From: a virus
IMG/VR virus record: IMGVR_UViG_3300029982_000012
Length of the DNA: 64,000 nt
Strand: one strand, 5' to 3'
Shown here: positions 1,407-54,387 of the stretch, piece after piece
Layout of the letters: each line of letters opens with the position of its first letter
Numbering within the stretch: position 1 is the first letter of the stretch
The notes under the pieces: model-generated
What the model saw: the letters and a program-made list of their open reading frames with translations, nothing else
The model's database searches: none
Told to the model about the DNA's origin: nothing
Program-made: the position numbers and the translations under genes

Positions 1407-1447
1407 ATATCCTTACCTGTATATATATATCATAAGATTGTCGGCCC

Positions 1448-9641: not shown

Positions 9642-9755
9642 TTGTTATATTTCCTTTAAGATAATTTCTCCAGTTTATTTCTATAAATTTAAGATTGTGG
9701 TGCTTCCTGGGGCCTATTTAAAAACTAAAATAAATTAATAACTTACAAAAATACT

Positions 9756-13146: not shown

Positions 13147-13233
13147 GTATTAGTCCTTAGATAATAAGATTGTCATTAAGGTTATATCGTATTAACTTGA
13201 ATCTTATAGGTAGAAGTAACCTAGAGGTACCCG

Positions 13234-14647: not shown

Positions 14648-14678
14648 ATCTACTTAAGATTGCAGCCCTTTAAAGACC

Positions 14679-17243: not shown

Positions 17244-19184
17244 TTAAGGTCCGTACACATACGAAATTTCATTCGCTCCAGGTATGGGACTTTCCCAGCC
17301 GCCCAACCCAATTGAGTTTGGATACAGCACCGTGTATATGACGGTTACACCGGCAGCAACGATAGTATCAATCAAGTTCTGTGCATATACCCGACCACTT
17401 GCTGTATCTGTCAAATATGGCTGATAGGCACTTCCATCTGTAGGAAGTACAATTGGACTTTTGCTCGCAACCAATAAAACAGAAGCGCCTTCAGCATGAG
17501 CCTGTTGAATGAAATATGCTGGACTAATCAACAATGTTCCACTTGAAGGAGCGGCAATATACGGAATTGGTCCTTCTTGATCGCTACATCCATAATTGAT
17601 TATTAAATACCCTGTAGTATTTGGAAAATCGGTAGAATTCGCAACATTAATGATCTGTCCTGTTTCGCCATTTACTGCGGAAGTTAGCGTTGTAGAGGCC
17701 CCACCAATTGTAAAGCCTTGGCTCGTATCATAGATATATGGCCCTAAAGTTGTTGGTTGGGACGGTCCATTATCGGATGCTGTTGAAGCCGTTTCTGATA
17801 TCAAAATAATTGCATTATTTGATATAGAAAGGGTTAAAGTAGGAGCCGCTATAGCGATTGCGGTATAGGCACTTTGGGCTACTGTATTTGCGGTATCTTC
17901 AGGATTTGCACTAACTTCAATTCCGGTAAATCCAGGTATCGCTGGATCAGTATTACTTCCACCAGAAACATTAAACCAAACATAGTATTGGTTAGAATTT
18001 CCCAAATCGCCAATTAAATAGTAACTTCCGGCCCCAATCGTATTAAAATTACTTGCAGCTTCAAAAATCAATTGAGTCTGTGGCATTTCAGAAATACCGT
18101 GTAGGTGGGCAGATCCAATCCTGGTTCTTTGGATTACCTGTGTTGTAGCCGGAACAAATATTTGTAAGATATTGGCTTGAGTCTGATATACGGCAGCATA
18201 ATAAGATTTACTTAAAATAGTTTCCCTGATTGGAACGAAAAATTGAATAGCAGAATCTATTCCTTGAACAATAATTCCAGGACTTCCTGTTGGATTGTTA
18301 ATCTCGAAATATGAAGAATTAATTGCGCCACCTTCGGCAGATACAATAGTATAAGTACCTTCATTATTGGAAGATGTAAATCCACCACCGTAAATATTTA
18401 CATACTGTCCAGGTTCTACATCGCCAACCCCAGGATCTGCGCCGCCAGTCCAAGTAAATCTTAAATTCCCACCGGGCTGTTGGGAAATGGTCCATTGCGT
18501 AGAAAAGTTTCCTGCTGTCGGAACAGTTGCTGGGAAAAGGAGTACGTTTTGTGCTCGACCTCCATAAACCGTAATGGAAGAGGAAGCCCCAATTGTATCA
18601 CTAAGCAACTGAACATAATTACCATTACCATCGTTATTTAAAATTGCGCTACCGGAAACACCTAAATTGCTTAGCCCAATTGAAATTGCATTAGCTACTT
18701 CTTGTGCGGTTGCCGCTGCTATATTTGTAAATTGACTAGTAGAAAAAGTAACCGTATAAGTTCCAGTACCATCAAAATTGATCATTAAGGTATCGCCATC
18801 TTGAAGGGCATACGGCTCAAAATTCTGAGAATTACTAGTTGTTTTTACGAATTGATCACCAAAAACGGCGTCTAAGATTTTGTTGATTAAATCGCGTACC
18901 TGTTTTCTGTTTTTGACTTGAATTCCAATTGTTCGAAAGATATCATCGCTAAGACCAATAGTTGGGTCTCTCACGATACCGTAGTTGGATAAAACTAGAT
19001 CTAAATAGTTGCCTTGGGCAGTTGCTACGTAAAGACTGTCATTTACTGCCTGAACGTTGTTTACTAAATAGGCAGAATTCGTAGCCAAAGCATTTAATAC
19101 GGCATCGACTTTTGGACCCTTCATAAAAGGATTCAAGTAAGAACGCAGTCTTTTGTATTCTTGTGCTTGTGTTGTTACTGCCAT
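17244..19184 (-). CDS. baseplate wedge subunit
   Basis: TAQG.YLD....YG..R...LSDD.FR motif, C-terminal AAGV; directly follows J-like gene. Confidence 0.7.
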   Translation of the reverse strand: MAVTTQAQEYKRLRSYLNPFMKGPKVDAVLNALATNSAYLVNNVQAVNDSLYVATAQGNYLDLVLSNYGIVRDPTIGLSDDIFRTIGIQVKNRKQVRDLINKILDAVFGDQFVKTTSNSQNFEPYALQDGDTLMINFDGTGTYTVTFSTSQFTNIAAATAQEVANAISIGLSNLGVSGSAILNNDGNGNYVQLLSDTIGASSSITVYGGRAQNVLLFPATVPTAGNFSTQWTISQQPGGNLRFTWTGGADPGVGDVEPGQYVNIYGGGFTSSNNEGTYTIVSAEGGAINSSYFEINNPTGSPGIIVQGIDSAIQFFVPIRETILSKSYYAAVYQTQANILQIFVPATTQVIQRTRIGSAHLHGISEMPQTQLIFEAASNFNTIGAGSYYLIGDLGNSNQYYVWFNVSGGSNTDPAIPGFTGIEVSANPEDTANTVAQSAYTAIAIAAPTLTLSISNNAIILISETASTASDNGPSQPTTLGPYIYDTSQGFTIGGASTTLTSAVNGETGQIINVANSTDFPNTTGYLIINYGCSDQEGPIPYIAAPSSGTLLISPAYFIQQAHAEGASVLLVASKSPIVLPTDGSAYQPYLTDTASGRVYAQNLIDTIVAAGVTVIYTVLYPNSIGLGGWESPIPGANEISYVYGP

Positions 19185-19185
19185 A

Positions 19186-22100
19186 TTATGAGCCTATCAA
19201 AGAAACCGAAATATCTGAAATTTGATTTGCAATGAAAGCTTTCTCGCCAGTTACTAACTGAATCTCATCTGAAGCAACTGTGTAGGCAGGATTTGTGATC
19301 ACAACAGATATAACTCCAGGAATTGCTCTAACTGCTTCAACGATGGAAGACAAATCGATACTTTGACCTAACGGATTAGATTGAATGAGGGCATATACAG
19401 TAGACTGAATTTGGCTAGTAATTTGCGCAAAAGACACGCCGATATTTGTCCTGATTGCAAGAGAAATCTGAATATTCTTTAAAAGCGGTTCTCTAATGAA
19501 AATATCTGTTCCTGCGGCATTTACACCAGGATAAGTAATAGAGTCTCTTGGATCTCCATAAATAACCCTGTTTGCTTCTCCAATAAGACCTATATCGAAA
19601 TTGTAACTATCGATACCACTTCTAAAAGTTGTTGGAAAGTTTAATTTACCTAAAGATGTGAGCCCTACATTTGCAGATAAATTAATTTTATCGTATTGTG
19701 CAGAAGTATTAAGCACAATATTGTTAAAATTAGTTGTTCCAGGCTGAGGAGAAATATACGCAACTTGTTTGTATCCAGTATAAACTTTTCCTTCTTGCAC
19801 AGACAAAGAAACTGAATTTGTGGATAGATTGGTATTGTATTGCGTAGAAACAACACCGGCAATAATTGCCGTAGTTGGACTTAGAACTTCAAGGATTTCA
19901 TAGGTTCCAGCATTTCCTGTACCTAAAACCGATCCATTAATTACTAACTTATCGCCAGGAATAGTTGCGTCATATTGGAAAAATTGGATTTGCGGTCTAC
20001 TTACAGAGAAGGTAACCGCAGACATGCTAGATTGATTAACGGCTTCTGGACTAATTACGGTTAAGAACGATTCTTGCCCTGTTTGAGTAACAACAAAACT
20101 GAAAGCTGCTGGCATCGATACATCAACAGGAGAGTTAGTAGCAGCAGAAACAGTATTGGTAGCCGTAACAACATTAGATGCAACAGATACGTTTATTGCA
20201 GTCAGATGTCCGTTAAGGGCATTGTATAATTCGTTTGCTACAGTAGTAGAGGAATCGGAAGCGTTAATGGTTACTTCGATGCCAGTAAACCCAACAGGTG
20301 CTGGATCAGTATTACTTCCACCAGAAACATTAAACCAAACATAGTATTGGTTAGAATTTCCACCATTATAGAGTTCAAAATAATCAGCAGCGCCAGAAGA
20401 AGAAAATGTACTACCGGCTGGCATAGTGAATTGAGTAATTTGTACCTGTGAAGGTCCAGAATTTGTAACCATGAAACTGCCTTGGTTATCGATATTAAAT
20501 CCAGTTCCAAAAGTAACAACATCTCCTGGTAATACGTTTTGTAAATTAGGAGGTGTTCCAGTCCCTGTCCAGACCAATTCTTGTGTGCCTAAAGAGGTGA
20601 CTACATTGAATACGGATGTTGAGTCATAACCAGTAGAAATTGGATTAACTACGCAAGTAATTTCTTCTTCTATTGCATTATCATTTTCGTACCAGATACT
20701 GTTGTTAAACATTCTGATAACTCTATAAGTTCCTTGATTTAAAGGAGAGAAAGGAGAGGCAAGAATTACGCTATCTCCTTCTGAAACAGAAGAAGTTGAA
20801 GTAAAGGCTCCTGCAGCAATTGCAGTACCACTCTCAGCCACTGCATTTGGATTAGATACAGTAAAAGAATTTCCTGTAAGACCTTCTACAAAGAAAGTAC
20901 CATTATTGCCTGCATTGGCAGCGCCAGTAACAGTAACTAAATCGCCGATTGATAACTCAGAAAAATTTGTATTTCCAGATGCAACGGTATATGTTCCAGT
21001 AGCGGATACATTTAGGGTCCATCCTCCAGAATCATTAAAATTTAAATTTGTACTAAAATTAGGAGATGATCCAACACCATTCCAACTCAAACAAGCAAGG
21101 GATCCTTGCTTTTCAATTCTGAAAGTGTCACCCTCTACCCTTACATAATTTCTTGGGCTACCAAAGTAAAGTTGATCCGCTGTTTGGTTTTCCAAAATAA
21201 CGGTTGATTCGCCAGAAATTGGGGTATTGCTTAAAACAGTAACGCTCGTATTAGACGAGAAACCGGTATTCTTATTTTGATAATTTTGTGCCGCTGCTCT
21301 AAACCATTGATCGCTCGCCACAGCTTGACTTGCGATACTATTGGCAGAGAATATCATTTCGTTATTGCCTAACAACTCTCCAGAAGTAAGAACTGGCACA
21401 ACATACTCATTACCGCTTCCGCCCACAATTTGAATTGATCCTACAGATCCAACTGTATTGGTTGCTAATTGGAGATGCGTACCTCTATCAGAAACTTCAA
21501 CATTTCCTACGGTAGTAAAGCCAGTTACTGCCAAAATAGACCAGAATTTCTGTACTTGATCCATTGTGGTTGGGACTAATACCACTGTGTCTCCGGCATT
21601 AAAAGAATATCCTGTATCGCTTGGATAGGTTAACGGTTTTTTAAAGGTAAACTGAGGAGTTACACCAATAGAAGAGTAAGCGATTGTTGTGTCTCCTACT
21701 CCACTTCCACTTACTTTAGTAAGCACTCCAGATGCTGGCGGAGTACCGATTGATCCAGTGGTGGTAAGGGATGTTCCAGCACTAATAGAAGATGTGACCG
21801 TAAAATATTGTAATTGATTATTACTATTGAAAGTTGTATATACTGCTCCTACAGTAGCATTCGCAGCACCAACAGCAAATACATACTGACCATCATTGGC
21901 AATCCAGTTAATCCCGTCTTTCAAGAAATAAAATGGGATCGTGAATCCACTATCTTCATAGGTACTTAACACAATAATACCTGAACCAGAAGTTCCGCCA
22001 TCATTCACGATTGTAGTCGTAAAATAATTAGACAAATTTGCGTTCACATAAGTATTAATTTGGGCTGCAGTAGTTGGAGATGATTGGTAAAAATAAATAC

Positions 22101-25100
22101 CATTCAAAACACTGGTCGTAACATTGGTTTGAGCAACTGCAACTCCGTCAGGTCTTTGCACTGTAAATGAAGTTGAGGTTGGCGCAAATCCTGCAGCAGT
22201 TGAGATCCTGAAAGTTCCAGTATTATTTACATTAAATCCAGTAGAAGGCAATATCGTTACATATTCTCCACCAGACAAAGTAAGTGCTGGAGATGTACCG
22301 GTTCCACTAAAGGAAAATGAAGAGAAAGTAATGGTGGTATCACCTGTACCACTAGTTTTCGTTAATGTTCCAGAAGCGGGAGGCGCCCCATTAGATCCGG
22401 TAGAAACTAAAGTTGTGCCGCCAGCTATCGTAGTAGTTACAGTAAAGTTTTGGCCGTTGCTACTTACATATGTGGCACCTGCAGTTGCGTTTGCAGAACT
22501 AACAGTAAAGGTATATTGGCCTGCCCAATTATATGTTACTTGATCGATTCCTGCTGTAGGAGTGTTTGGAGTTATAGTAACATTCCATTTCGTATTCGAG
22601 GAAATATTTGTTGTAATTGGATTTCCAGAAGCCAAACTAATTTGTACACTTACATTGTTTGCTGAAGTAACTGAGATACTAGAATTAATAGCCTGATTAG
22701 CCGAACTTGGATAGACATAAGAAACATTTATATACTCCCCGCTTGCTCCCCAAGCAGTAGATCTATAAAGAAGAGCTGTTTGGGTGTTTGATCCTTGCAA
22801 TACATATTTTGCTTGCAATAACGCTTTAAAGTTTGAAAAGTCAAACCCAGTGAAATTGGTAGAAAAGCTAGCAGTTGGTCCAGTTGCGGTGTCGTATGCA
22901 TTAAAACTGTAATTGTTTATTGCGTATGTGCTATTTACTAACGCATTTCTATAAAGAGGAAGAGTATAGGTCTCACCAAGGGTATTATTGTCTACAATTA
23001 CAACTACAGAATCGTTATATCCAAAATCCAAAGGATTTGCTATATAAAATCTGTCTGCCACTCTTAATCTACGAACATCTGGGTATTCTGGTAGGATTGT
23101 AATGGCACTTCCAGCCGTTTCTGACATCTGAACGGTTTCACCGGAAGGCTGTTCATCATCAAGAATGGTTCCTGGAACTATTCCGTATGGGTTTAGGAAT
23201 TGAATTAGTTCATTAGGGTCAAAAGAAGATACCGAAATAGCTGAAGAGAAATTGGTTACATAGGTGTCAATCGGTTCAGCATATGAATCAGAACTGATTG
23301 TTGAATGAAAAAACAAAGGAAGTTCTGCTTGGGCAGACTGAGTCTCATAATATGCAATTAATGCACTTTGACTTACACTATTAAGTCCGCTCTTGAAGTT
23401 TAAAAGAGATCCGGCAGTATCAGAAGTAACTACAGTAATTTGTCCATTTAAGTCATCAGAATTCGAAGTAATGGTAATGTTAGTATTGTCAATAATATTA
23501 AATTGTAATTGATCGGTTTGAGTTTGTAGTTCAATAGCAATTGCATTCAGTGTTTTGGTTCCTGCTTGAACTCTAAATTTTTGCGGAACATTGCTGGTTC
23601 TTACGACAGCAAAGCCAGAAATATAAGAATTATTTGCAGAAGCAGAAGCTATAGCGTATTCTGCTGCGGTAACTTTAATATCTAAAGTGCTACCAGTGTT
23701 TGCATGAACTCTTCCTTCGAGTTGATCCCCAGACGGTACTTGAGGAGACCAAACAATTACATAGTCTCCCGGTAATACATTTGAGAATGCGGAAGAAGAA
23801 TTACTTGTATACCTAACAGTATTTGAGCCTACAAGTGTTACCGACAAGAGAGATCCCGAAATAATAGTCGGTATAAGAACTGCATTTGTATCAATTGAAA
23901 TCCATATGTGGGCATCTGACGAAAGCGTTAAGGAGCCTGAAGAAATGGCTGAAGATTCGATATTGGCTTGGGTAACTGGAGTTCCTGCAGACAGAGAATC
24001 TCCCGCAACTAATGCTGTTACTAATTCAATTTGGGCTGTGTTTCTATCTAATATATAATCCGATGCTACCCCTTTAGAGAAAAGATCGCTAATGCTGATG
24101 ACGCCTTTTGCAATTAAAGAAGTGGGATTTGATGCTGGAGTACTCACTACCAACAGAGTGCCGCCACTAATAGTAACGCCTACGGTAAATGTAGCGCCAT
24201 TATTGGTATAAGTGGCTCCAGCAGTAGCGTTTGTACTGGATACTGTAAAGGCATATTGCCCATCAGATAATTGTAAGAAAGTAGAATAACTAATTGATGC
24301 GTCTCCACTTCCACTTACTTTAGTAAGCACCCCAGGACCTGTAATTGGGGTGTACAGAGTATTAACGATATTAATCTGAGCTCTATCAATTGCTCCTAAG
24401 TTACTGGTAATTTCAATTGTAGATCCCACAATAGATGCGGTGATGCCGGAAACTACGCTATTTAGAACATTTACCCAAGATTGTAGGCTGTTTGAATAGG
24501 AAAGGGTCGTATAGGTTCCTTCAGCAACAAAGTCGGCATCCGTTAAAGTATAAGTAATAGGGCTCGTTCCATCAACTCCAATACTTAAAGTTTCTCCAGA
24601 AGCTAGAGTAGGAGACCAAAGACTTTGTTCTTGTGTAAAAATTGATGCAGTAGACCCATCTTCTGTTAGGAGTTTACCGTTCTTGTAAAGCCTTAAGGTT
24701 TCTGCTATTTGTGAAGGGAATTCCAAAACAGAGTTTGCATCTGTTACAGAAGAACTTGCGGGAGTTGTGACCTGAATCTTATTTGTGACTTCATCTTCTG
24801 GTCTGATAACTACATATGTTCCGCCACCAGCAGTTACTGCCTCAAAATTAAGTAGTGTATCTGCATTTATGCTTGCGCATACTTCATATGCAGTTGCACT
24901 ACCAGGATTCGCGAAATCGGTAGATGCAAAAGTGTGTTCGTAAGTAATATTACCAACAACAACCGTAAGTACCTCACCGCCAGATAAAGCAAAAGGTTCT
25001 AGCGCTACAGTTTGAAGGAAAGCCTTGGTTACAGAAGTTTGTTCTCCGCCAGTAACCAATTGAAAAAATTTCTCTCCACCTAAAGCTGAGTTTACGATGG

Positions 25101-26358
25101 TCTCAATGGCAACACCGGTATGGGTTGCTTCTAATCCAGCCCCATTATCAATATAGACAGTAGTATTTGTAGCCGAATTCAATACGTCCGTACTTACAAT
25201 TGTGTCTGATCCAGTTGGGTCTTGGACTCCTTGAAGAGCGGATTCAATTGCGGTAACGGTACCTAGACCGGTAGAAGCTAAAGCATTCTTGATGTTGATT
25301 CTTAATTCGTCATCTGTTTCAGTATCTAGCCCTGTAGTAATACCAAGCGGATTTGTTACAAAGGCATTTGGAAGACCGGTAGGATTCCCAGAAAATTCAG
25401 AGATTGCACCTGCAGGAACATTCGCTGCGGATCCCGGTAAGACGGCGACGATTGGAATATTGGTTACAGTCGTTTCTCCATCTAAAATAATTCCACTTTG
25501 GGTTACAGAATATTGAATATCTGGAGTTGTTCCAATTCCTGGACTAATTACTATAGTGTTTACTGGTACGGTTCTAACGCCACCTTGGGAAAGAATCACT
25601 GTCTCGCTGATATTATGAAATTTTGTAGTTGGACTATCTAATGTTATTTCCCAAAAACTTCCAATTTGAACTGGTGGGGCCTTATAAGTAAATGCAGTAC
25701 CATTGGTCGATGCCGTATTGCTGATATGGATCTGACTTGAAGAGTCAATAGAAGAAATTGTTGTTCCAGTTGGGATTCCGGCTCCAAAGACAGTAAATCC
25801 TACTAGTAAATTGGCCGTAGAAGGGATTCCTGAAATAATATTGGACGCTATAGAACTAACTCCAGTAAATCCAGTAGAGTTCGCTCCATAAGAAATGGGA
25901 CCTTCTACGTTAACACTTCCTCGACCGATATAAATTGCGCCTGTGGCAGGAAAGGAAGAGGCATTACTTACAAAAATAGTGGTAGAGCCAGCGATTGGGG
26001 GATTCGCTCCTGCATAAATTAGAGTAGATATTTTTTGAAAAGAAAGATCGGTAACTGTTACGAAACTCGTAGCAGCGGAAGCTCCAACAACCGGAACATT
26101 GAATTCGGCGGCCAAATTCTTTAAAGCTGGTCCAGTAGCACGATCTAGGTTGTAATCTCTTAAAATCTGGAATATGTCCCCACTTGCACGGGCTACCATA
26201 AGAGCAACAACTTTAAAGAAACTTACGTTTGCCGACCCAATGTTTAGATCGTTGATCCCCAATGCAGACGCATAACTACTCGATGATTGACCAAGTAAGT
26301 CTTCATAGGACTGGGGCTGTGGTAAAGACGAACTTGGGGGAGTTGGGCTAGTTGCCAT
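19186..26358 (-). CDS. giant baseplate J-like (gp6-like) wedge protein
   Basis: LDRATG..L..LA, G.DTETDDELR, GT..AI..A, C-terminal LGQSI.LS.I...V..IPGV.SV. Confidence 0.85.
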   Translation of the reverse strand: MATSPTPPSSSLPQPQSYEDLLGQSSSSYASALGINDLNIGSANVSFFKVVALMVARASGDIFQILRDYNLDRATGPALKNLAAEFNVPVVGASAATSFVTVTDLSFQKISTLIYAGANPPIAGSTTIFVSNASSFPATGAIYIGRGSVNVEGPISYGANSTGFTGVSSIASNIISGIPSTANLLVGFTVFGAGIPTGTTISSIDSSSQIHISNTASTNGTAFTYKAPPVQIGSFWEITLDSPTTKFHNISETVILSQGGVRTVPVNTIVISPGIGTTPDIQYSVTQSGIILDGETTVTNIPIVAVLPGSAANVPAGAISEFSGNPTGLPNAFVTNPLGITTGLDTETDDELRINIKNALASTGLGTVTAIESALQGVQDPTGSDTIVSTDVLNSATNTTVYIDNGAGLEATHTGVAIETIVNSALGGEKFFQLVTGGEQTSVTKAFLQTVALEPFALSGGEVLTVVVGNITYEHTFASTDFANPGSATAYEVCASINADTLLNFEAVTAGGGTYVVIRPEDEVTNKIQVTTPASSSVTDANSVLEFPSQIAETLRLYKNGKLLTEDGSTASIFTQEQSLWSPTLASGETLSIGVDGTSPITYTLTDADFVAEGTYTTLSYSNSLQSWVNVLNSVVSGITASIVGSTIEITSNLGAIDRAQINIVNTLYTPITGPGVLTKVSGSGDASISYSTFLQLSDGQYAFTVSSTNATAGATYTNNGATFTVGVTISGGTLLVVSTPASNPTSLIAKGVISISDLFSKGVASDYILDRNTAQIELVTALVAGDSLSAGTPVTQANIESSAISSGSLTLSSDAHIWISIDTNAVLIPTIISGSLLSVTLVGSNTVRYTSNSSSAFSNVLPGDYVIVWSPQVPSGDQLEGRVHANTGSTLDIKVTAAEYAIASASANNSYISGFAVVRTSNVPQKFRVQAGTKTLNAIAIELQTQTDQLQFNIIDNTNITITSNSDDLNGQITVVTSDTAGSLLNFKSGLNSVSQSALIAYYETQSAQAELPLFFHSTISSDSYAEPIDTYVTNFSSAISVSSFDPNELIQFLNPYGIVPGTILDDEQPSGETVQMSETAGSAITILPEYPDVRRLRVADRFYIANPLDFGYNDSVVVIVDNNTLGETYTLPLYRNALVNSTYAINNYSFNAYDTATGPTASFSTNFTGFDFSNFKALLQAKYVLQGSNTQTALLYRSTAWGASGEYINVSYVYPSSANQAINSSISVTSANNVSVQISLASGNPITTNISSNTKWNVTITPNTPTAGIDQVTYNWAGQYTFTVSSANATAGATYVSSNGQNFTVTTTIAGGTTLVSTGSNGAPPASGTLTKTSGTGDTTITFSSFSFSGTGTSPALTLSGGEYVTILPSTGFNVNNTGTFRISTAAGFAPTSTSFTVQRPDGVAVAQTNVTTSVLNGIYFYQSSPTTAAQINTYVNANLSNYFTTTIVNDGGTSGSGIIVLSTYEDSGFTIPFYFLKDGINWIANDGQYVFAVGAANATVGAVYTTFNSNNQLQYFTVTSSISAGTSLTTTGSIGTPPASGVLTKVSGSGVGDTTIAYSSIGVTPQFTFKKPLTYPSDTGYSFNAGDTVVLVPTTMDQVQKFWSILAVTGFTTVGNVEVSDRGTHLQLATNTVGSVGSIQIVGGSGNEYVVPVLTSGELLGNNEMIFSANSIASQAVASDQWFRAAAQNYQNKNTGFSSNTSVTVLSNTPISGESTVILENQTADQLYFGSPRNYVRVEGDTFRIEKQGSLACLSWNGVGSSPNFSTNLNFNDSGGWTLNVSATGTYTVASGNTNFSELSIGDLVTVTGAANAGNNGTFFVEGLTGNSFTVSNPNAVAESGTAIAAGAFTSTSSVSEGDSVILASPFSPLNQGTYRVIRMFNNSIWYENDNAIEEEITCVVNPISTGYDSTSVFNVVTSLGTQELVWTGTGTPPNLQNVLPGDVVTFGTGFNIDNQGSFMVTNSGPSQVQITQFTMPAGSTFSSSGAADYFELYNGGNSNQYYVWFNVSGGSNTDPAPVGFTGIEVTINASDSSTTVANELYNALNGHLTAINVSVASNVVTATNTVSAATNSPVDVSMPAAFSFVVTQTGQESFLTVISPEAVNQSSMSAVTFSVSRPQIQFFQYDATIPGDKLVINGSVLGTGNAGTYEILEVLSPTTAIIAGVVSTQYNTNLSTNSVSLSVQEGKVYTGYKQVAYISPQPGTTNFNNIVLNTSAQYDKINLSANVGLTSLGKLNFPTTFRSGIDSYNFDIGLIGEANRVIYGDPRDSITYPGVNAAGTDIFIREPLLKNIQISLAIRTNIGVSFAQITSQIQSTVYALIQSNPLGQSIDLSSIVEAVRAIPGVISVVITNPAYTVASDEIQLVTGEKAFIANQISDISVSLIGS

Positions 26359-26435
26359 TTAAAAACCTCTTATACAGTAAGATTGAGGGTATGTAAGTCC
26401 TCGTATATATTATATCGCCAGAAAATTCTTAAAAT

Positions 26436-29066: not shown

Positions 29067-29130
29067 AAATATAAGATTGTCGGTTTAGGTTTACACAGAT
29101 ATGTCACTAAATATGTGATATAAAAAGTAT

Positions 29131-36811: not shown

Positions 36812-36885
36812 TGTGAAGACCCCAGATTAAAATTAGACCCTTATAAGATAAGATTGACGGTTTAACCTTTACTTACTTATATCAC

Positions 36886-45909: not shown

Positions 45910-46012
45910 AATTCTCCTAAATATAAACCCGTCACCACATGAAACCCATTTTAAGGCGCGTGACGGGCGCTCATGGAAAAGGTTAATGGTCAATCCCATG
46001 AACAAAAATTTC

Positions 46013-46174
46013 GTGACAGGTCAGTCGCTACTCTGACAAGGATACTACTAGGGCTACCCAATGTATTGTCTGCTCCCGTTCATTCCTAAATCCTACATTT
46101 AGATCTGCGTGTCTCTTAGTTTCTGGGGCGTCACGTCCAGTAAAGACTCAAACTGCTTTCCACGCCGCTGTCAC
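46013..46174 (-). ncRNA. tRNA-shaped structured ncRNA, copy B
   Basis: GTGACAG/CTGTCAC closing stem, GCGTGGAAAGC...AGAGACACGC, GTCAG-AGTAGCGA-CTGAC; starts about 7 nt after a sigma70 -10 box. Confidence 0.7.
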
Positions 46175-46181
46175 TTCATAG

Positions 46182-46210
46182 AATATATCGTTAATTAGTA
46201 CGCAAGTCAA
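46182..46210 (-). promoter_or_regulatory. sigma70-like promoter for ncRNA B and RNA ligase
   Basis: TTGACT-N17-TATATT. Confidence 0.7.
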
Positions 46211-46214
46211 TACT

Positions 46215-46247
46215 AAAAAGCCCCCTAAAAATTAATTTAGGAGGCTT
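46215..46247 (-). terminator. intrinsic terminator after ice-binding gene
   Basis: AAGCCTCCTAAA-loop-TTTAGGGGGCTT followed by T tract. Confidence 0.75.
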
Positions 46248-46276
46248 GGATACGGAGGAATTTGGAGGTCTAAGGA

Positions 46277-48124
46277 TTATGAACTAACTGCAACATCGTC
46301 GAGAGTAACTGCGGTCTGAGCATAAATACCTGTTCCGTGATATGTAGAAGTAGTCTGCATTGCCACGTTTGTACTGGCCAATATTGTTCCTCTGAATACG
46401 CTTGATACCCCAGCGGTTACGGATCCAGCAACAGCCCACATTACATTTGAAGCTTGTGCTCCGCCAGTCATTACGATCTGAGCAGAACTAGCTAAATTCA
46501 AGGTAGAAGAACATTGGAATACCCAAGTGTCGTTCACGCCACCGTTTAAGGTTAACGTTCCGGTAATAGAAGTTGGTACGGTTAATTTGTATAATCCTGG
46601 AGCGAGAGTTAAACCACCAAGAGCACCTGCGCCTGGATTGGTTTGTGTAGGAGTAGTAAGTCCTTGAGCATTTGTGTAAGCAGTAGTCATATTAGCAACT
46701 GCAGTGGTAAGGTTAGCAGGTGTTGGAGCACTGTAATCTGCTGCGAAGATATGTCCAGTTACATTTGGAGCAGTAGAGAATTGACCAGAACCATCTAAGG
46801 TGAGTGTGAAGCCAGTAATTGCTGTGTGAGCGATTGGGGAAACACCCATTTCGCCAGTAACTGCAGATCCTGAAGTATCACTGATACCACTTTCTGACAA
46901 AATTCTATATGCAGAAGCTGCTCCAAGACTTGGAAGAGCTGGTCCTAATGCACTAATGGTATAAGCAGCACTTCCAACGGCAGAGTTGCTCAATCCAGCC
47001 TTTACAGCTAAAACCTTAAGAGTTTCAGATGCATTGATCAGAATTGGACCTGCATATGCAGTACTTCCAGTAGTTGGGGTTGATCCATCAAGAGTGTAGT
47101 AAAATAATGCGCTAGAAGTAAGGGAAGAAACGGTAACCATTTGGCTACCAGCATAAGTTCCGGCTACAGGAGAGAAAGTTGGAGTTGCAACTTGACTTCC
47201 ACCGATAATGTAGGCTGCTCCATTTACGATAGAGTTAGCAAATCCGTTTTTGATAGCAATAGCATTAACTTGTTCACTTGCACTAACAGTAATAGGAGCG
47301 CTGTAAAGTGAACTATTGATAGAAGGTTGGCTTCCGTCAGTAGTATAATAAATTGAAGCACCAGCAGTTGCTGAACTTAAACTAACAGTTTGTGAAGATC
47401 CATAAGTACCAGCATTTGGAGAAAATGTAGGAAGAGCAGCCGCTTGACTAACAACCGTTGGAATTACAGTAACTTTGTTGCTAGAGACTGAAGAGGTCGC
47501 AGCAGCTACATCCAAAGCAATTGCGGCCTGGGTTTTAGTGGCAATCGCAGCAGCCGAGTCAGAACTGAGGATGGTAGCTTCGATACCGGTAAAACCGATA
47601 GGAGCTGGATTAACGTTAGTTCCGCCCGATACATTGTACCAAATATCGTACTGATTTGTATTACCAGCGGTAAATAGAGTGAAATATGCTCCGGCTCCAA
47701 AACTAGGGAAAGCGCTTCCGGCTGGCATTGAGAGAGAAATAACAGGTTGTTGTGCAGGTCCTTGAGTAACAGTGCTAGCACTGAAACCAGATGGCATAGA
47801 GATATTTTGAGGACCAGTATTAGGAATGGGCACTCCGATACCTACACCACCAGCCAAATTAGATAAAACGTCTGCTAAAGATGCGATAGGTAATTCGAAA
47901 CCGTCTGTAACGAATTCGATGTCACGAGCACTCAAGGCATAATTTCCTAAGATACAGTTTTGAAAATTTTGTGCAACTTGATTTTCCCCAAAACAACTCT
48001 CAAGTCGGGTAAAAGAGGACGGTGAAAGTAGGGCTTGAGTTTGGATTGCGTTAATAAGCTCGGCACCAGCAGTATTGTCGCCCATGCCCGAGATTAGAAA
48101 GGGAAGAGATGAAGATTGTAACAT
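46277..48124 (-). CDS. ice-binding protein (DUF3494) with two Fn3-associated/CHB_HEX_C repeats and a virion-type module
   Basis: C-terminal LGAA..Y.IL...AY..A.G...LGGLTLAPGLYK...WVFQ...GGAQASNV.WAV...F.GTILA...AQTAVTLD; two PTFSP..GTY..SQ.V....YYT.DGS.P repeats. Confidence 0.88.
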   Translation of the reverse strand: MLQSSSLPFLISGMGDNTAGAELINAIQTQALLSPSSFTRLESCFGENQVAQNFQNCILGNYALSARDIEFVTDGFELPIASLADVLSNLAGGVGIGVPIPNTGPQNISMPSGFSASTVTQGPAQQPVISLSMPAGSAFPSFGAGAYFTLFTAGNTNQYDIWYNVSGGTNVNPAPIGFTGIEATILSSDSAAAIATKTQAAIALDVAAATSSVSSNKVTVIPTVVSQAAALPTFSPNAGTYGSSQTVSLSSATAGASIYYTTDGSQPSINSSLYSAPITVSASEQVNAIAIKNGFANSIVNGAAYIIGGSQVATPTFSPVAGTYAGSQMVTVSSLTSSALFYYTLDGSTPTTGSTAYAGPILINASETLKVLAVKAGLSNSAVGSAAYTISALGPALPSLGAASAYRILSESGISDTSGSAVTGEMGVSPIAHTAITGFTLTLDGSGQFSTAPNVTGHIFAADYSAPTPANLTTAVANMTTAYTNAQGLTTPTQTNPGAGALGGLTLAPGLYKLTVPTSITGTLTLNGGVNDTWVFQCSSTLNLASSAQIVMTGGAQASNVMWAVAGSVTAGVSSVFRGTILASTNVAMQTTSTYHGTGIYAQTAVTLDDVAVSS

Positions 48125-48235
48125 GGTTTTTTCTCCTTAAATTTTAGTCATATACTCTTACAGACTTACCTAAAAGATTGGATTACTATCGGTCATATGG
48201 TATAAACCGTTGATTTTATTCAGTTATAGATAAAA

Positions 48236-53973: not shown

Positions 53974-54374
53974 TGGTGGACCTGAGAGCATCGAAGCCCT
54001 GTCCGTCGATCATTTCAAAATCAATCTACGAGCGTAGGCCGTTTAAAGTCCGGCTCAGACTTAGGACCATCACGATTAAATGACGGGCTCCACCATCTTT
54101 GTGTGGCAACCCCAAAGCGGGTATAGAAGCAAGCCAAACTCACCACTTGGATCGGCAGGTGACGCCGTTGTTTCCAGAATTATTTTACACAGTCACTGGA
54201 TACTGCGACAAACTTCTTATTTCTAAGCTGCTTGTAACTCTTCGTACTCTTCGTACAAAGAATCTTGAGAGTCTAACTCTGCATTTGTTTTTGATCAATT
54301 TTTAAGGTAGCCGTTGATCAACTACCGCTCGCATAATAATGTCCTAAACCTCCGTCGAAAACCTTTACAGGCCC
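53974..54374 (-). ncRNA. ssrA: tmRNA
   Basis: 5' GGGCCTG...TTCGAC, 3' CAGGTCC-A-CCA with G3:U70; tag ORF 54282-54223 reads AELDSQDSLYEEYEELQAA*. Confidence 0.93.
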
Positions 54375-54379
54375 AGATT

Positions 54380-54387
54380 TAAGATTG
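54380..54387 (-). promoter_or_regulatory. putative late promoter CAATCTTA (also 1433, 9690, 13165, 14655, 26378, 29072, 36849; variant at 48173)
   Basis: Identical octamer 5-48 nt upstream of eight minus-strand genes, mostly structural. Confidence 0.7.

What the first reader, a model, noticed from the sequence alone, without database searches (positions are those of the whole stretch)
46277..48124. Phage-encoded ice-binding (DUF3494) protein that looks like a virion appendage
Seen: a full C-terminal DUF3494-type beta-solenoid with Thr/Ser-rich rungs, two Fn3-associated spacer domains, an N-proximal module shared with this phage's baseplate/fibre proteins, no evident signal peptide, a late-type motif upstream and a terminator downstream. 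Established: DUF3494 domains bind ice and inhibit recrystallisation, and bacteria often display them on Ig-like stalks. Inference: the particle may carry an ice adhesin or antifreeze decoration for persistence or host encounter at ice surfaces. I know of no characterised example in a tailed phage.
Basis: partly seen in the sequence, partly recalled or inferred. Interest (0 to 1): 0.82.

Follow-up and report, generated by a model that had tools for sequence, protein, structure and literature searches.

The report
Stand-alone ice-binding-type protein of a peat phage
An uncultured 165-kb phage related to Myxococcus phage Mx1 encodes a non-secreted protein, apparently switched on with the particle genes, that holds a textbook "ice-binding" domain out on two spacer domains; it probably decorates the virus particle, but neither that nor ice binding has been tested.

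Summary
ORF 46277-48124 (-) encodes 615 residues: a six-helix N-terminal domain, a 105-residue alpha/beta module, two Fn3_assoc beta-sandwiches and a full-length DUF3494 domain (PF11999, E 2.5e-59). That domain is about 50% identical, without gaps, to the proven antifreeze FfIBP. There is no signal peptide. The module is 50% identical to one in this phage's own 2390-residue Baseplate_J-like protein. A strong terminator follows the gene.

New here:
- About 50 nt upstream lies a one-mismatch copy of CAATCTTA. The exact motif precedes seven genes of the structural block in this window. It is kept upstream of the homologue in 10 of 14 related loci, and the other four have AATCTTT.
- The N-terminal part is kept (56% identity) across two architectures with different DUF3494 subtypes (30% identity).
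- Sister phages carry DUF3494 inside their giant baseplate protein.
- The DUF3494 domain is more conserved than the N-terminal helical domain, the reverse of what I expect for a receptor-binding fibre.

Against a virion role: the gene always lies in accessory-gene islands and no docking partner was found. Ice binding is plausible; one homologue comes from Stordalen Mire permafrost peat. It is unproven, because equally similar domains occur in haloarchaea.

This scan had already noted DUF3494 in phage structural proteins on other DNA. I found no paper on it.

The parts
48173..48180 (-). Promoter-type motif CAATCTTT, a one-mismatch copy of the CAATCTTA element that precedes the structural-block genes; it ends 48 nt before the ATG
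   Evidence: all 8 exact CAATCTTA copies lie on the minus strand in upstream gaps, 7 before genes of the tail/baseplate block; of 14 independent homologue loci, 10 have CAATCTT[A/T/G] (nine at -48 to -58 from the start; L011/L012 at about -80 from the ATG) and four (L005, L007-L009) have AATCTTT, while the flanks differ.
48133..48138 (-). Shine-Dalgarno AAGGAG, 8 nt before the ATG at 48124
   Evidence: Read directly from the sequence.
47849..48124 (-). N-terminal helical domain, residues 1-92 (helices 7-14, 17-29, 35-45, 48-58, 66-76, 80-89); specific to this protein family and the proposed docking part
   Evidence: AlphaFold2 pLDDT 89-98. An exhaustive phmmer search finds it only in this family and in a few 104-172-aa proteins. 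No significant fold match. It is the least conserved domain, with mean pairwise identity 42-45%.
47447..47794 (-). Alpha/beta module, residues 111-226, shared with this phage's Baseplate_J-like giant protein and its neighbour
   Evidence: blastp: 50% identity, E 3.8e-25, to ORF 19186..26358; 39% identity, E 2e-17, to ORF 17244..19184. It is a widespread repeat in 1000-5000-aa proteins, with up to 9 copies. It resembles outer domains of phage sheath, nozzle and Baseplate_J proteins: VIA Z 5-5.8 and BFVD E 1e-6 to 6e-3.
47201..47431 (-). First Fn3_assoc / CHB_HEX_C_1 beta-sandwich spacer, residues 232-308
   Evidence: Pfam PF13290 E 5.5e-39 and PF13287 E 1.5e-30, two stretches each; strands in the model.
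46949..47185 (-). Second Fn3_assoc / CHB_HEX_C_1 beta-sandwich spacer, residues 314-392
   Evidence: In more distant homologues this domain is replaced by a different spacer that aligns at only 15-22% identity.
46280..46945 (-). Canonical DUF3494 (IBP-1) beta-solenoid with its bracing helix (residues 470-487), residues 394-615
   Evidence: PF11999 at 200.9 bits, profile 1-207 of 208. PDB sequence matches: 9lhs E 3.5e-58; the FfIBP chimera 4nu3 E 3.2e-57, gapless and about 50% identical; TisAFP 5b5h E 1.4e-49. pLDDT 90-97. BFVD fold matches only to Hyperionvirus DUF3494 proteins.
46218..46247 (-). Intrinsic terminator (12-bp stem, 6-nt loop, T-run) ending the transcription unit
   Evidence: sequence.

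Best explanation
The gene is a self-contained transcription unit with its own promoter-type motif, a strong ribosome-binding site and its own terminator. The motif suggests that it is expressed together with the virion genes (inferred; nothing here measures timing).

Shown: the product has no export signal, so it folds in the cytoplasm. It is a string of domains: a family-specific six-helix domain, an alpha/beta module of the kind found on the outside of phage baseplate and sheath proteins, two Ig-like spacers, and a canonical DUF3494 beta-solenoid at the far end.

Inferred: the N-terminal 230 residues dock the protein non-covalently on the assembled particle, on the tail/baseplate or the head. 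The spacers then hold the flat-faced solenoid several nanometres out. The solenoid binds a chemically constant surface, most probably ice. Virions would then stick to ice-crystal faces, or restrain recrystallisation around themselves, in seasonally frozen peat. That would help them survive freeze-thaw cycles and stay in the liquid veins where hosts are.

This makes it a Hoc/pb10-style accessory decoration whose tip is an ice-binding-type domain. Virion attachment and ice binding are both inferences.
For: Domain content and model confidence.

Co-regulation with structural genes. CAATCTTA occurs 8 times in the window, always on the coding strand in an upstream gap, 7 times before genes of the tail/baseplate block. 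The gene here has CAATCTTT. Of 14 independent homologue loci, 10 have CAATCTT[A/T/G] (nine at -48 to -58 from the start) and four have AATCTTT, in otherwise unrelated flanks. The same motif precedes the baseplate genes of relatives.

No export signal, whereas cellular DUF3494 proteins typically have one (PMC11645318).

The module is shared at 50% identity with the phage's own Baseplate_J-like protein. Elsewhere it is a repeat in very large proteins and resembles outer domains of sheath, nozzle and Baseplate_J proteins.

Sister phages G001 and G003 carry two DUF3494 domains inside their 2621-2784-aa baseplate ORFs and one in a 917-982-aa ORF, besides the stand-alone gene. G002, G004 and G005 carry only the stand-alone gene.

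The N-terminal part is 56% identical between two architectures whose DUF3494 domains are only 30% identical and sit in a different order relative to the spacer. The same front end has therefore been kept with two kinds of DUF3494.

DUF3494 is the most conserved domain (61-65% mean identity) and the helical domain the least (42-45%). That fits a constant ligand plus a lineage-specific docking site.

For ice: a gapless alignment at about 50% identity to the FfIBP chimera and strong matches to TisAFP and LeIBP. A full-length homologue, 54% identical, lies on QGNH01001128.1, one of the Stordalen Mire permafrost-gradient viral contigs. The 21 phage domains form one clade, support 0.986, apart from 57 cellular ones, which points to long retention in phages.
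Against: The gene is never inside a core structural operon. Here it lies between an Endonuclease_7 gene and an RNA ligase, near RNR and peptide deformylase. In relatives it lies beside Metallophos, dNMP kinase and dGTP diphosphohydrolase genes. In G004 it lies just after the major capsid gene, but in a variable slot that in Mx1 holds thymidylate synthase and dNMP kinase.

The promoter motif here is a one-mismatch variant, and two other CAATCTTT copies in the window lie inside genes. Its link to late timing is itself inferred from gene function.

No PHROG family matches the protein. No known anchor fold matches the helical domain. The module's fold matches are all below Z 8.

Canonical DUF3494 domains of the same similarity (44-52%) occur in haloarchaea such as Natrinema, Halovivax and Halohasta, and in many mesophile MAGs. 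The literature records DUF3494 in non-freezing habitats with possible mineral or other substrates.

The ice-binding face was not analysed. The habitat of this phage's own samples could not be read with the tools.
Confidence: 0.45

Rival explanations
1. A free, soluble ice-binding protein. It is made late in large amounts, not assembled into the particle, and released at lysis. There it restrains ice recrystallisation in the surrounding film, protecting progeny virions and the remaining host population. This would be an auxiliary 'public good' gene rather than a structural one.
For: The gene lies in accessory-gene islands in every genome examined and moves between islands. It has its own promoter-type motif and terminator, like a moron. 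No signal peptide means release is possible only by lysis. No docking partner or known anchor fold was found. The domain is very close to secreted antifreeze proteins.
Against: A soluble antifreeze would not need 230 conserved N-terminal residues plus spacers, yet that front end is retained across two different DUF3494 fusions. The module is otherwise found in structural proteins. Sister phages build DUF3494 covalently into their baseplate protein.
Confidence: 0.25
2. A virion-attached adhesin whose DUF3494 face binds something other than ice: host slime or capsule polysaccharide, plant or peat polymers, or mineral surfaces. It would act like the Ig-like and carbohydrate-binding decorations of other phages, raising the rate of host encounter.
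For: [quoted passage not shown] Domains 44-52% identical occur in haloarchaea and mesophile MAGs. The Fn3_assoc / CHB_HEX_C spacers are typical of secreted glycan-active proteins. The only cultured relative in the phage collection is Myxococcus phage Mx1; that its host makes slime is my own knowledge, and the host of this phage is unknown.
Against: The distal domain is more conserved than the anchor, the reverse of the pattern I expect, from general knowledge, for host-receptor binders. Similarity to experimentally proven antifreeze proteins is high and gapless. At least one family member comes from a permafrost thaw gradient.
Confidence: 0.25
3. A trimeric tail fibre or receptor-binding protein in the classical sense, with the N-terminus as a trimerisation and baseplate anchor and DUF3494 as the host-recognition tip.
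For: The module is shared with baseplate-region proteins, and the general layout is anchor, shaft, tip.
Against: Fn3_assoc beads and DUF3494 are, as far as I know, monomeric folds, and no coiled coil or triple beta-helix is present in the model. The tip is more conserved than the anchor. The gene lies about 10 kb from the nearest edge of the fibre/baseplate block at 2.5-37 kb.
Confidence: 0.05

Closest known systems
FfIBP of Flavobacterium frigoris PS1 (PDB 4NU2; chimera 4NU3), TisAFP of Typhula ishikariensis (3VN3, 5B5H) and LeIBP (3UYU): canonical DUF3494 / IBP-1 antifreeze proteins
   Same: Residues 394-615 align end to end without gaps, at about 50% identity to 4NU3 (E 3.2e-57) and E 1e-49 to TisAFP. 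They match the full PF11999 profile and are modelled as a beta-solenoid with a bracing helix.
   Different: Those are secreted single-domain proteins of cold-adapted cells. This one is phage-encoded, has no signal peptide, and carries a 390-residue front end. It has only one Cys in the domain, so it cannot form the capping-head disulfide described for FfIBP (PMC10853241). Its activity is untested.
Bacterial DUF3494 ice adhesins with tandem beta-sandwich domains (SfIBP_1 of Shewanella frigidimarina, PDB 6BG8; Vance et al. 2018, cited in PMC11645318)
   Same: A DUF3494 domain held on Ig-like beta-sandwich spacers, which suggests a tethered ice-binding module rather than a free antifreeze.
   Different: The bacterial proteins are exported and tethered to the cell. 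Here the tether would be a phage-specific helical domain plus an alpha/beta module, and the carrier a virus particle. The sequence match to 6BG8 is far weaker (E 5e-17).
Accessory capsid or tail decoration proteins with Ig-like domains (T4 Hoc, T5 pb10); from my own knowledge, not tested by homology here
   Same: A non-essential-looking gene outside the core operons, with the layout 'binding domain + Ig-like spacer(s) + exposed distal domain' and an apparently late promoter.
   Different: There is no sequence or fold similarity to Hoc or pb10 (no PHROG match; no fold match). The distal domain is a DUF3494 solenoid rather than another Ig domain.
DUF3494 cassettes inside structural proteins of Mx1-like and other soil or lake phages
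   Same: The same phage clade, the same domain family, and the same alpha/beta module next to it.
   Different: There the domain is covalently inserted into baseplate or other large structural ORFs and is a divergent subtype (96-127 bits). Here it is a separate gene with the canonical subtype (201 bits), a dedicated N-terminal domain, and its own transcription signals.

Membership tests
DUF3494 / IBP-1 (Pfam PF11999 Ice_binding) | Sequence match to the family profile above the curated threshold, over the full length | tested here: met
   200.9 bits against a cut-off of 28.7, profile positions 1-207 of 208, E 2.5e-59.
DUF3494 / IBP-1 (Pfam PF11999 Ice_binding) | Beta-solenoid with one long alpha-helix packed alongside | tested here: met
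   The AlphaFold2 model has short strands from 408 to 614 and a helix at 470-487, at pLDDT 90-97. Fold match to Hyperionvirus DUF3494 models: TM-score 0.67 normalised to the target, rmsd 2.7. Gapless sequence alignment to solved IBPs.
DUF3494 / IBP-1 (Pfam PF11999 Ice_binding) | A flat face with ordered small or hydroxyl side chains (the ice-binding site) | not tested
Only composition is known: Thr 16%, Ser 11%, Ala 14%, Gly 12%.
Functional ice-binding / antifreeze proteins | Measured thermal hysteresis, ice shaping or recrystallisation inhibition | not testable with these tools
   This needs recombinant protein. The nearest proven proteins are about 50% identical.
Cellular secreted or surface DUF3494 proteins | N-terminal signal peptide or membrane anchor (a shared feature according to PMC11645318) | tested here: not met
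   No Lys or Arg in residues 1-39, maximal hydropathy window 1.19, and the N-terminus is modelled as a helical bundle.
Phage virion decoration or appendage proteins | Physical presence in the particle | not testable with these tools
   There is no cultured phage and no proteome. Indirect support only: shared promoter-type motif, shared module, and DUF3494 inside the baseplate ORFs of sister phages.
Phage virion decoration or appendage proteins | Homology or fold similarity of the anchoring part to a known virion-binding domain | tested here: inconclusive
   The helical domain has no match. The module matches outer domains of sheath, nozzle and Baseplate_J proteins only weakly: Z 5-5.8 and BFVD E 1e-6 to 6e-3.
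Phage virion decoration or appendage proteins | Gene located within a structural module (a usual but not defining feature) | tested here: not met
   It is flanked by Endonuclease_7, RNA ligase, RNR and peptide deformylase genes here, and lies in accessory islands in relatives.

The most novel reading that the evidence does not exclude
A clade of about 150-176-kb Mx1-like phages of seasonally frozen peat equips its particles with a dedicated, detachable ice adhesin: a docking domain, a stalk and a canonical antifreeze-type domain. Virus particles themselves would then bind ice and partition with, or shape, the liquid veins of frozen soil. That would be the first ice-binding virion, and a mechanism for phage persistence and host encounter through freeze-thaw cycles.
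Probability: 0.3. Interest if true: 0.8.

Novelty: new variant of a known kind. Interest (0 to 1): 0.62.

Why it matters
DUF3494 proteins are the commonest microbial ice-binding proteins, and those characterised so far come from cells. A phage-encoded, non-secreted version would extend ice adaptation to virus particles if it sits on the virion and binds ice. This version is wired to the structural-gene promoter type and carries a conserved front end.

It would also give a concrete and easily testable candidate for how soil viruses survive and stay infective through freezing in permafrost-affected peat. Phage-host dynamics bear on carbon release there (Emerson et al. 2018, PMC6786970).

The domain is short, free of disulfides and evidently folds in the cytoplasm. 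That also makes it an attractive antifreeze scaffold to express.

If instead the ligand is not ice, the family would be a useful handle on the unknown non-ice function of DUF3494.

Tried and rejected
- Nucleotide search of 44-51 kb against GenBank phages found nothing.
- tblastn of the N-terminal 232 residues (E up to 1) and of the DUF3494 domain (E up to 0.01) against 50,697 phage records found nothing. The whole protein matched only Fn3_assoc-type segments.
- PHROGs gave no family for the protein.
- Foldseek of the N-terminal model against the PDB gave nothing at E 0.001 or better. The wide VIA search gave only Z below 6.
- Complex prediction with three copies of residues 1-232 gave no verdict (score 0.00, controls not run). 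This is no evidence either way about oligomerisation.
- No whole genome is held for the window, and the ENA and JGI contigs could not be searched as records. I could therefore not check this phage's own sheath or capsid genes for further DUF3494 copies. Complete relatives with the same architecture have one copy.
- Habitat look-ups by sample or contig identifier in the paper library failed for all JGI, ENA and SRA identifiers. Only QGNH01 could be tied to Stordalen Mire.
- The PDB codes 9LHS, 9LI0, 9LHN and 9LHR, the best sequence matches, could not be traced to a paper, so their activity is unknown.
- The first genome-contig scan, with the single protein, found no relative. The alignment-based scan did.
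- I considered and dropped adjacency to the major capsid gene in G004 as evidence for a head decoration. The same slot in Mx1 holds thymidylate synthase and dNMP kinase.
Full report
**What is there**

The window is part of a large tailed phage. ORFs between 2.5 and 37 kb match tail, tail-spike, baseplate-hub and Baseplate_J families. The baseplate hub is 30% identical over 93% of its length to that of Myxococcus phage Mx1. An identical copy of the protein studied here lies on 165-kb contigs from several samples.

The finding's ORF, 46277..48124 on the minus strand, encodes 615 residues. Pfam places a full-length PF11999 Ice_binding domain at 408-613 (E 2.5e-59, 200.9 bits, profile 1-207 of 208). 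It also places two CHB_HEX_C_1 / Fn3_assoc domains before it.

An AlphaFold2 model built on 34 family sequences is confident (mean pLDDT 86.8). The N-terminal 232 residues modelled alone reach 92.7. The domain order is:
- a six-helix domain (7-89);
- a short Pro/Asn-rich linker;
- an alpha/beta module (115-222);
- two beta-sandwiches (about 233-307 and 316-391);
- a beta-solenoid with a bracing helix (470-487).

- Residues 122-224 are 50% identical (E 3.8e-25) to residues 1968-2070 of the phage's 2390-residue Baseplate_J-like protein. They are 39% identical (E 2e-17) to the adjacent 646-residue protein.
- There is no signal peptide. The first 39 residues contain no Lys or Arg, hydropathy is low, and the N-terminus is part of the helical bundle.
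- A 12-bp-stem terminator lies 30 nt after the stop codon.
- AAGGAG lies 8 nt before the ATG.

**Expression signal**

Reading the upstream regions of all larger ORFs showed a recurring CAATCTTA. All eight exact copies in the 64 kb lie on the minus strand in short gaps just upstream of genes. Seven precede genes of the tail/baseplate block and one precedes a tmRNA gene. The raw count is not far above chance (8 against 4.1 expected); the placement is what is striking.

The gene here has CAATCTTT, ending 48 nt before the ATG. On its own that one-mismatch copy would be weak evidence. In relatives, however, 10 of 14 independent homologue loci have CAATCTT[A/T/G], nine of them at -48 to -58 from the start and L011/L012 at about -80 from the ATG. 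The other four (L005, L007-L009) have AATCTTT. The flanking sequence is otherwise unrelated. The same CAATCTTA also precedes the baseplate genes of relatives.

I therefore take the gene to be co-regulated with the virion genes. That this promoter type is 'late' is inferred from the functions of the genes it precedes.

**The family**

A word-indexed search and an exhaustive phmmer search define a family restricted to uncultured phage contigs of about 150-176 kb. No deposited phage record matches either the front end or the DUF3494 domain.

Two main architectures share the N-terminal 230 residues.
- Type A (612-660 aa, including this protein) has the front end, then two spacers, then a canonical C-terminal DUF3494.
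- Type B (441-546 aa) has the front end, then directly a divergent DUF3494, then no or one Fn3_assoc domain.

Between the types the front end is 56% identical, but the DUF3494 domains are only 30% identical, with many gaps. The same front end has thus been kept with two different DUF3494 subtypes in different positions. This is the strongest argument that 'front end plus DUF3494' is the selected unit.

Further variants exist: three spacers; or a more divergent helical N-domain with two DUF3494 domains.

Within type A, the helical domain is the least conserved part (42-45% mean pairwise identity) and DUF3494 the most conserved (61-65%). There is clear mosaicism. One homologue is 86% identical in DUF3494 and 63% in the helical domain; another is 64% and 78%. 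From general knowledge, receptor-binding fibres show the opposite pattern, with a conserved anchor and a variable tip. So the tip probably recognises something that does not co-evolve with the host.

**Link to the particle**

The alpha/beta module is a widespread repeat in very large proteins, with up to nine copies. Structurally it most resembles outer domains of phage tail sheath proteins (cyanophage A-1(L) Z 5.8, PhiTE Z 5.4), T7-type nozzle proteins and flagellin outer domains. All of these are below Z 8 and so only suggestive. In BFVD it matches large Caudovirales proteins, one tail sheath model and two Baseplate_J-like models (E 1e-6 to 6e-3).

In complete sister genomes, the type-B phages G001 and G003 carry five PF11999 matches each:
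- the stand-alone gene;
- two inside the 2621-2784-residue baseplate ORF, which is homologous at 65% identity to this window's 2390-residue ORF;
- a permuted pair inside a 917-982-residue ORF.

Type-A phages G002, G004 and G005 have only the stand-alone gene. So displaying DUF3494 on structural proteins is a theme of this clade. In phages like the present one, the stand-alone protein is the only carrier of the domain.

**What argues against a structural role**

The gene is always in an accessory island.
- Here its neighbours are Endonuclease_7, a tRNA-like RNA with its own promoter, an RNA ligase, RNR and peptide deformylase.
- In G002 they are a metallophosphatase and a dNMP kinase.
- In type-B phages it lies near RNR and RlaP.
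- In G004 it lies right after the major capsid gene, which is 53% identical to the Mx1 capsid protein. That slot is variable: in Mx1 it holds thymidylate synthase and dNMP kinase. I therefore do not count the adjacency as evidence.

No known anchor fold matches the helical domain, and no PHROG matches the protein.

**Ice or something else**

The solenoid aligns without gaps to the FfIBP chimera 4NU3 (about 50% identity by my count of the printed alignment), to TisAFP and to LeIBP. These are proven antifreeze proteins.

One full-length homologue (54% identity) lies on QGNH01001128.1, and a second family locus lies on QGNH01001129.1. QGNH01 is the set of 1,907 viral contigs from the Stordalen Mire permafrost thaw gradient (PMC6786970). 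That paper does not mention ice-binding genes.

Against this, cellular domains 44-52% identical occur not only in cold-associated genera (Polaromonas, Glaciimonas, Clostridium algoriphilum, Mucilaginibacter, Lutibacter) and peat methanogens. They also occur in several haloarchaea and many other MAGs. The literature states that DUF3494 occurs in non-freezing habitats and may bind other substrates (PMC11645318, PMC12337378).

In a quick FastTree of 21 phage and 57 cellular domains, the phage domains form one clade with support 0.986. The tree was midpoint-rooted, the cellular set was limited to pattern-matched loci, and L169 was left out because of a stop codon. The result suggests one old acquisition that has been retained since.

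**Verdict**

The most likely reading (0.45) is a virion-attached decoration, co-expressed with the particle genes, that presents an ice-binding-type face. The rivals are a soluble protein released at lysis (0.25), a virion adhesin for a non-ice ligand (0.25) and a classical trimeric fibre (0.05).

The domain family is known. The new features are the carrier (a tailed phage), the absence of secretion, the dedicated N-terminal domain and the wiring to the structural-gene promoter type. I found no paper describing DUF3494 in tailed phages. This scan, however, had already noted DUF3494 cassettes in phage tail proteins on other DNA. This case is therefore a distinct stand-alone variant of a theme the scan has seen, not a first sighting.

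Noticed in passing
window 53974-54374 (-): A phage-encoded tmRNA: Rfam RF00023, 65.5 bits, full model; ARAGORN predicts a tag peptide ending in ...YEELQAA. It is preceded by TTGACA, 17 nt, then CAATCTTA, the motif otherwise seen before the structural-block genes.
   Followed up: partly
window 1433-1440, 9690-9697, 13165-13172, 14655-14662, 26378-26385, 29072-29079, 36849-36856, 54380-54387 (all -): CAATCTTA is a candidate -10-like element of a phage-specific, probably late, promoter. All 8 copies are on the coding strand in short upstream gaps. Two copies (14655-14662 and 54380-54387) have TTGACA exactly 17 nt upstream. The motif is conserved before baseplate genes in relatives L031 and L034.
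   Followed up: partly
G001 = IMGVR_UViG_3300029922_000007 (116930-120319, 20437-21270, 150022-150597) and G003 = IMGVR_UViG_3300037231_000119: Sister phages carry five PF11999 matches each: two in the giant baseplate ORF, a circularly permuted pair in a 917-982-aa ORF, and the stand-alone gene. Phages with the canonical stand-alone type have only one.
   Followed up: partly
L047 100-414, L048 148-462 (protein P0153): The family's N-terminal helical domain also exists as a complete 104-aa stand-alone gene on short contigs. It could be a split form, a decoy or a fragment left by recombination.
   Followed up: no
L052 6335-9980; Mx1 OR576727.2 19703-23111 (L054): The slot just downstream of the major capsid gene in Mx1-like phages is a variable accessory island. 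Mx1 has thymidylate synthase and dNMP kinase there. G004 has a 50-aa ORF, the DUF3494 protein, a metallophosphatase and a dGTP diphosphohydrolase-like gene.
   Followed up: partly
proteins P0049, P0099, P0115 (locus L051 8001-9269): These variants have a more divergent helical N-domain and lack the alpha/beta module. Two of them carry both a capless and a canonical DUF3494 separated by fn3 and Fn3_assoc domains. P0115 sits at the boundary between a block of same-strand genes and UDG / dCMP deaminase genes.
   Followed up: no
window 46182-46210 (-): A sigma-70-like TTGACT, 17 nt, TATATT promoter lies immediately after the terminator of the DUF3494 gene. It precedes a structured leader or tRNA-like RNA and the RNA ligase gene.
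   Followed up: no
window 46001-48000: The gene is richer in G+C (0.43) than its flanks (0.36-0.38) and closer to the fibre genes (0.42-0.46). This may reflect its Ala/Gly/Thr/Ser-rich composition or its origin.
   Followed up: no
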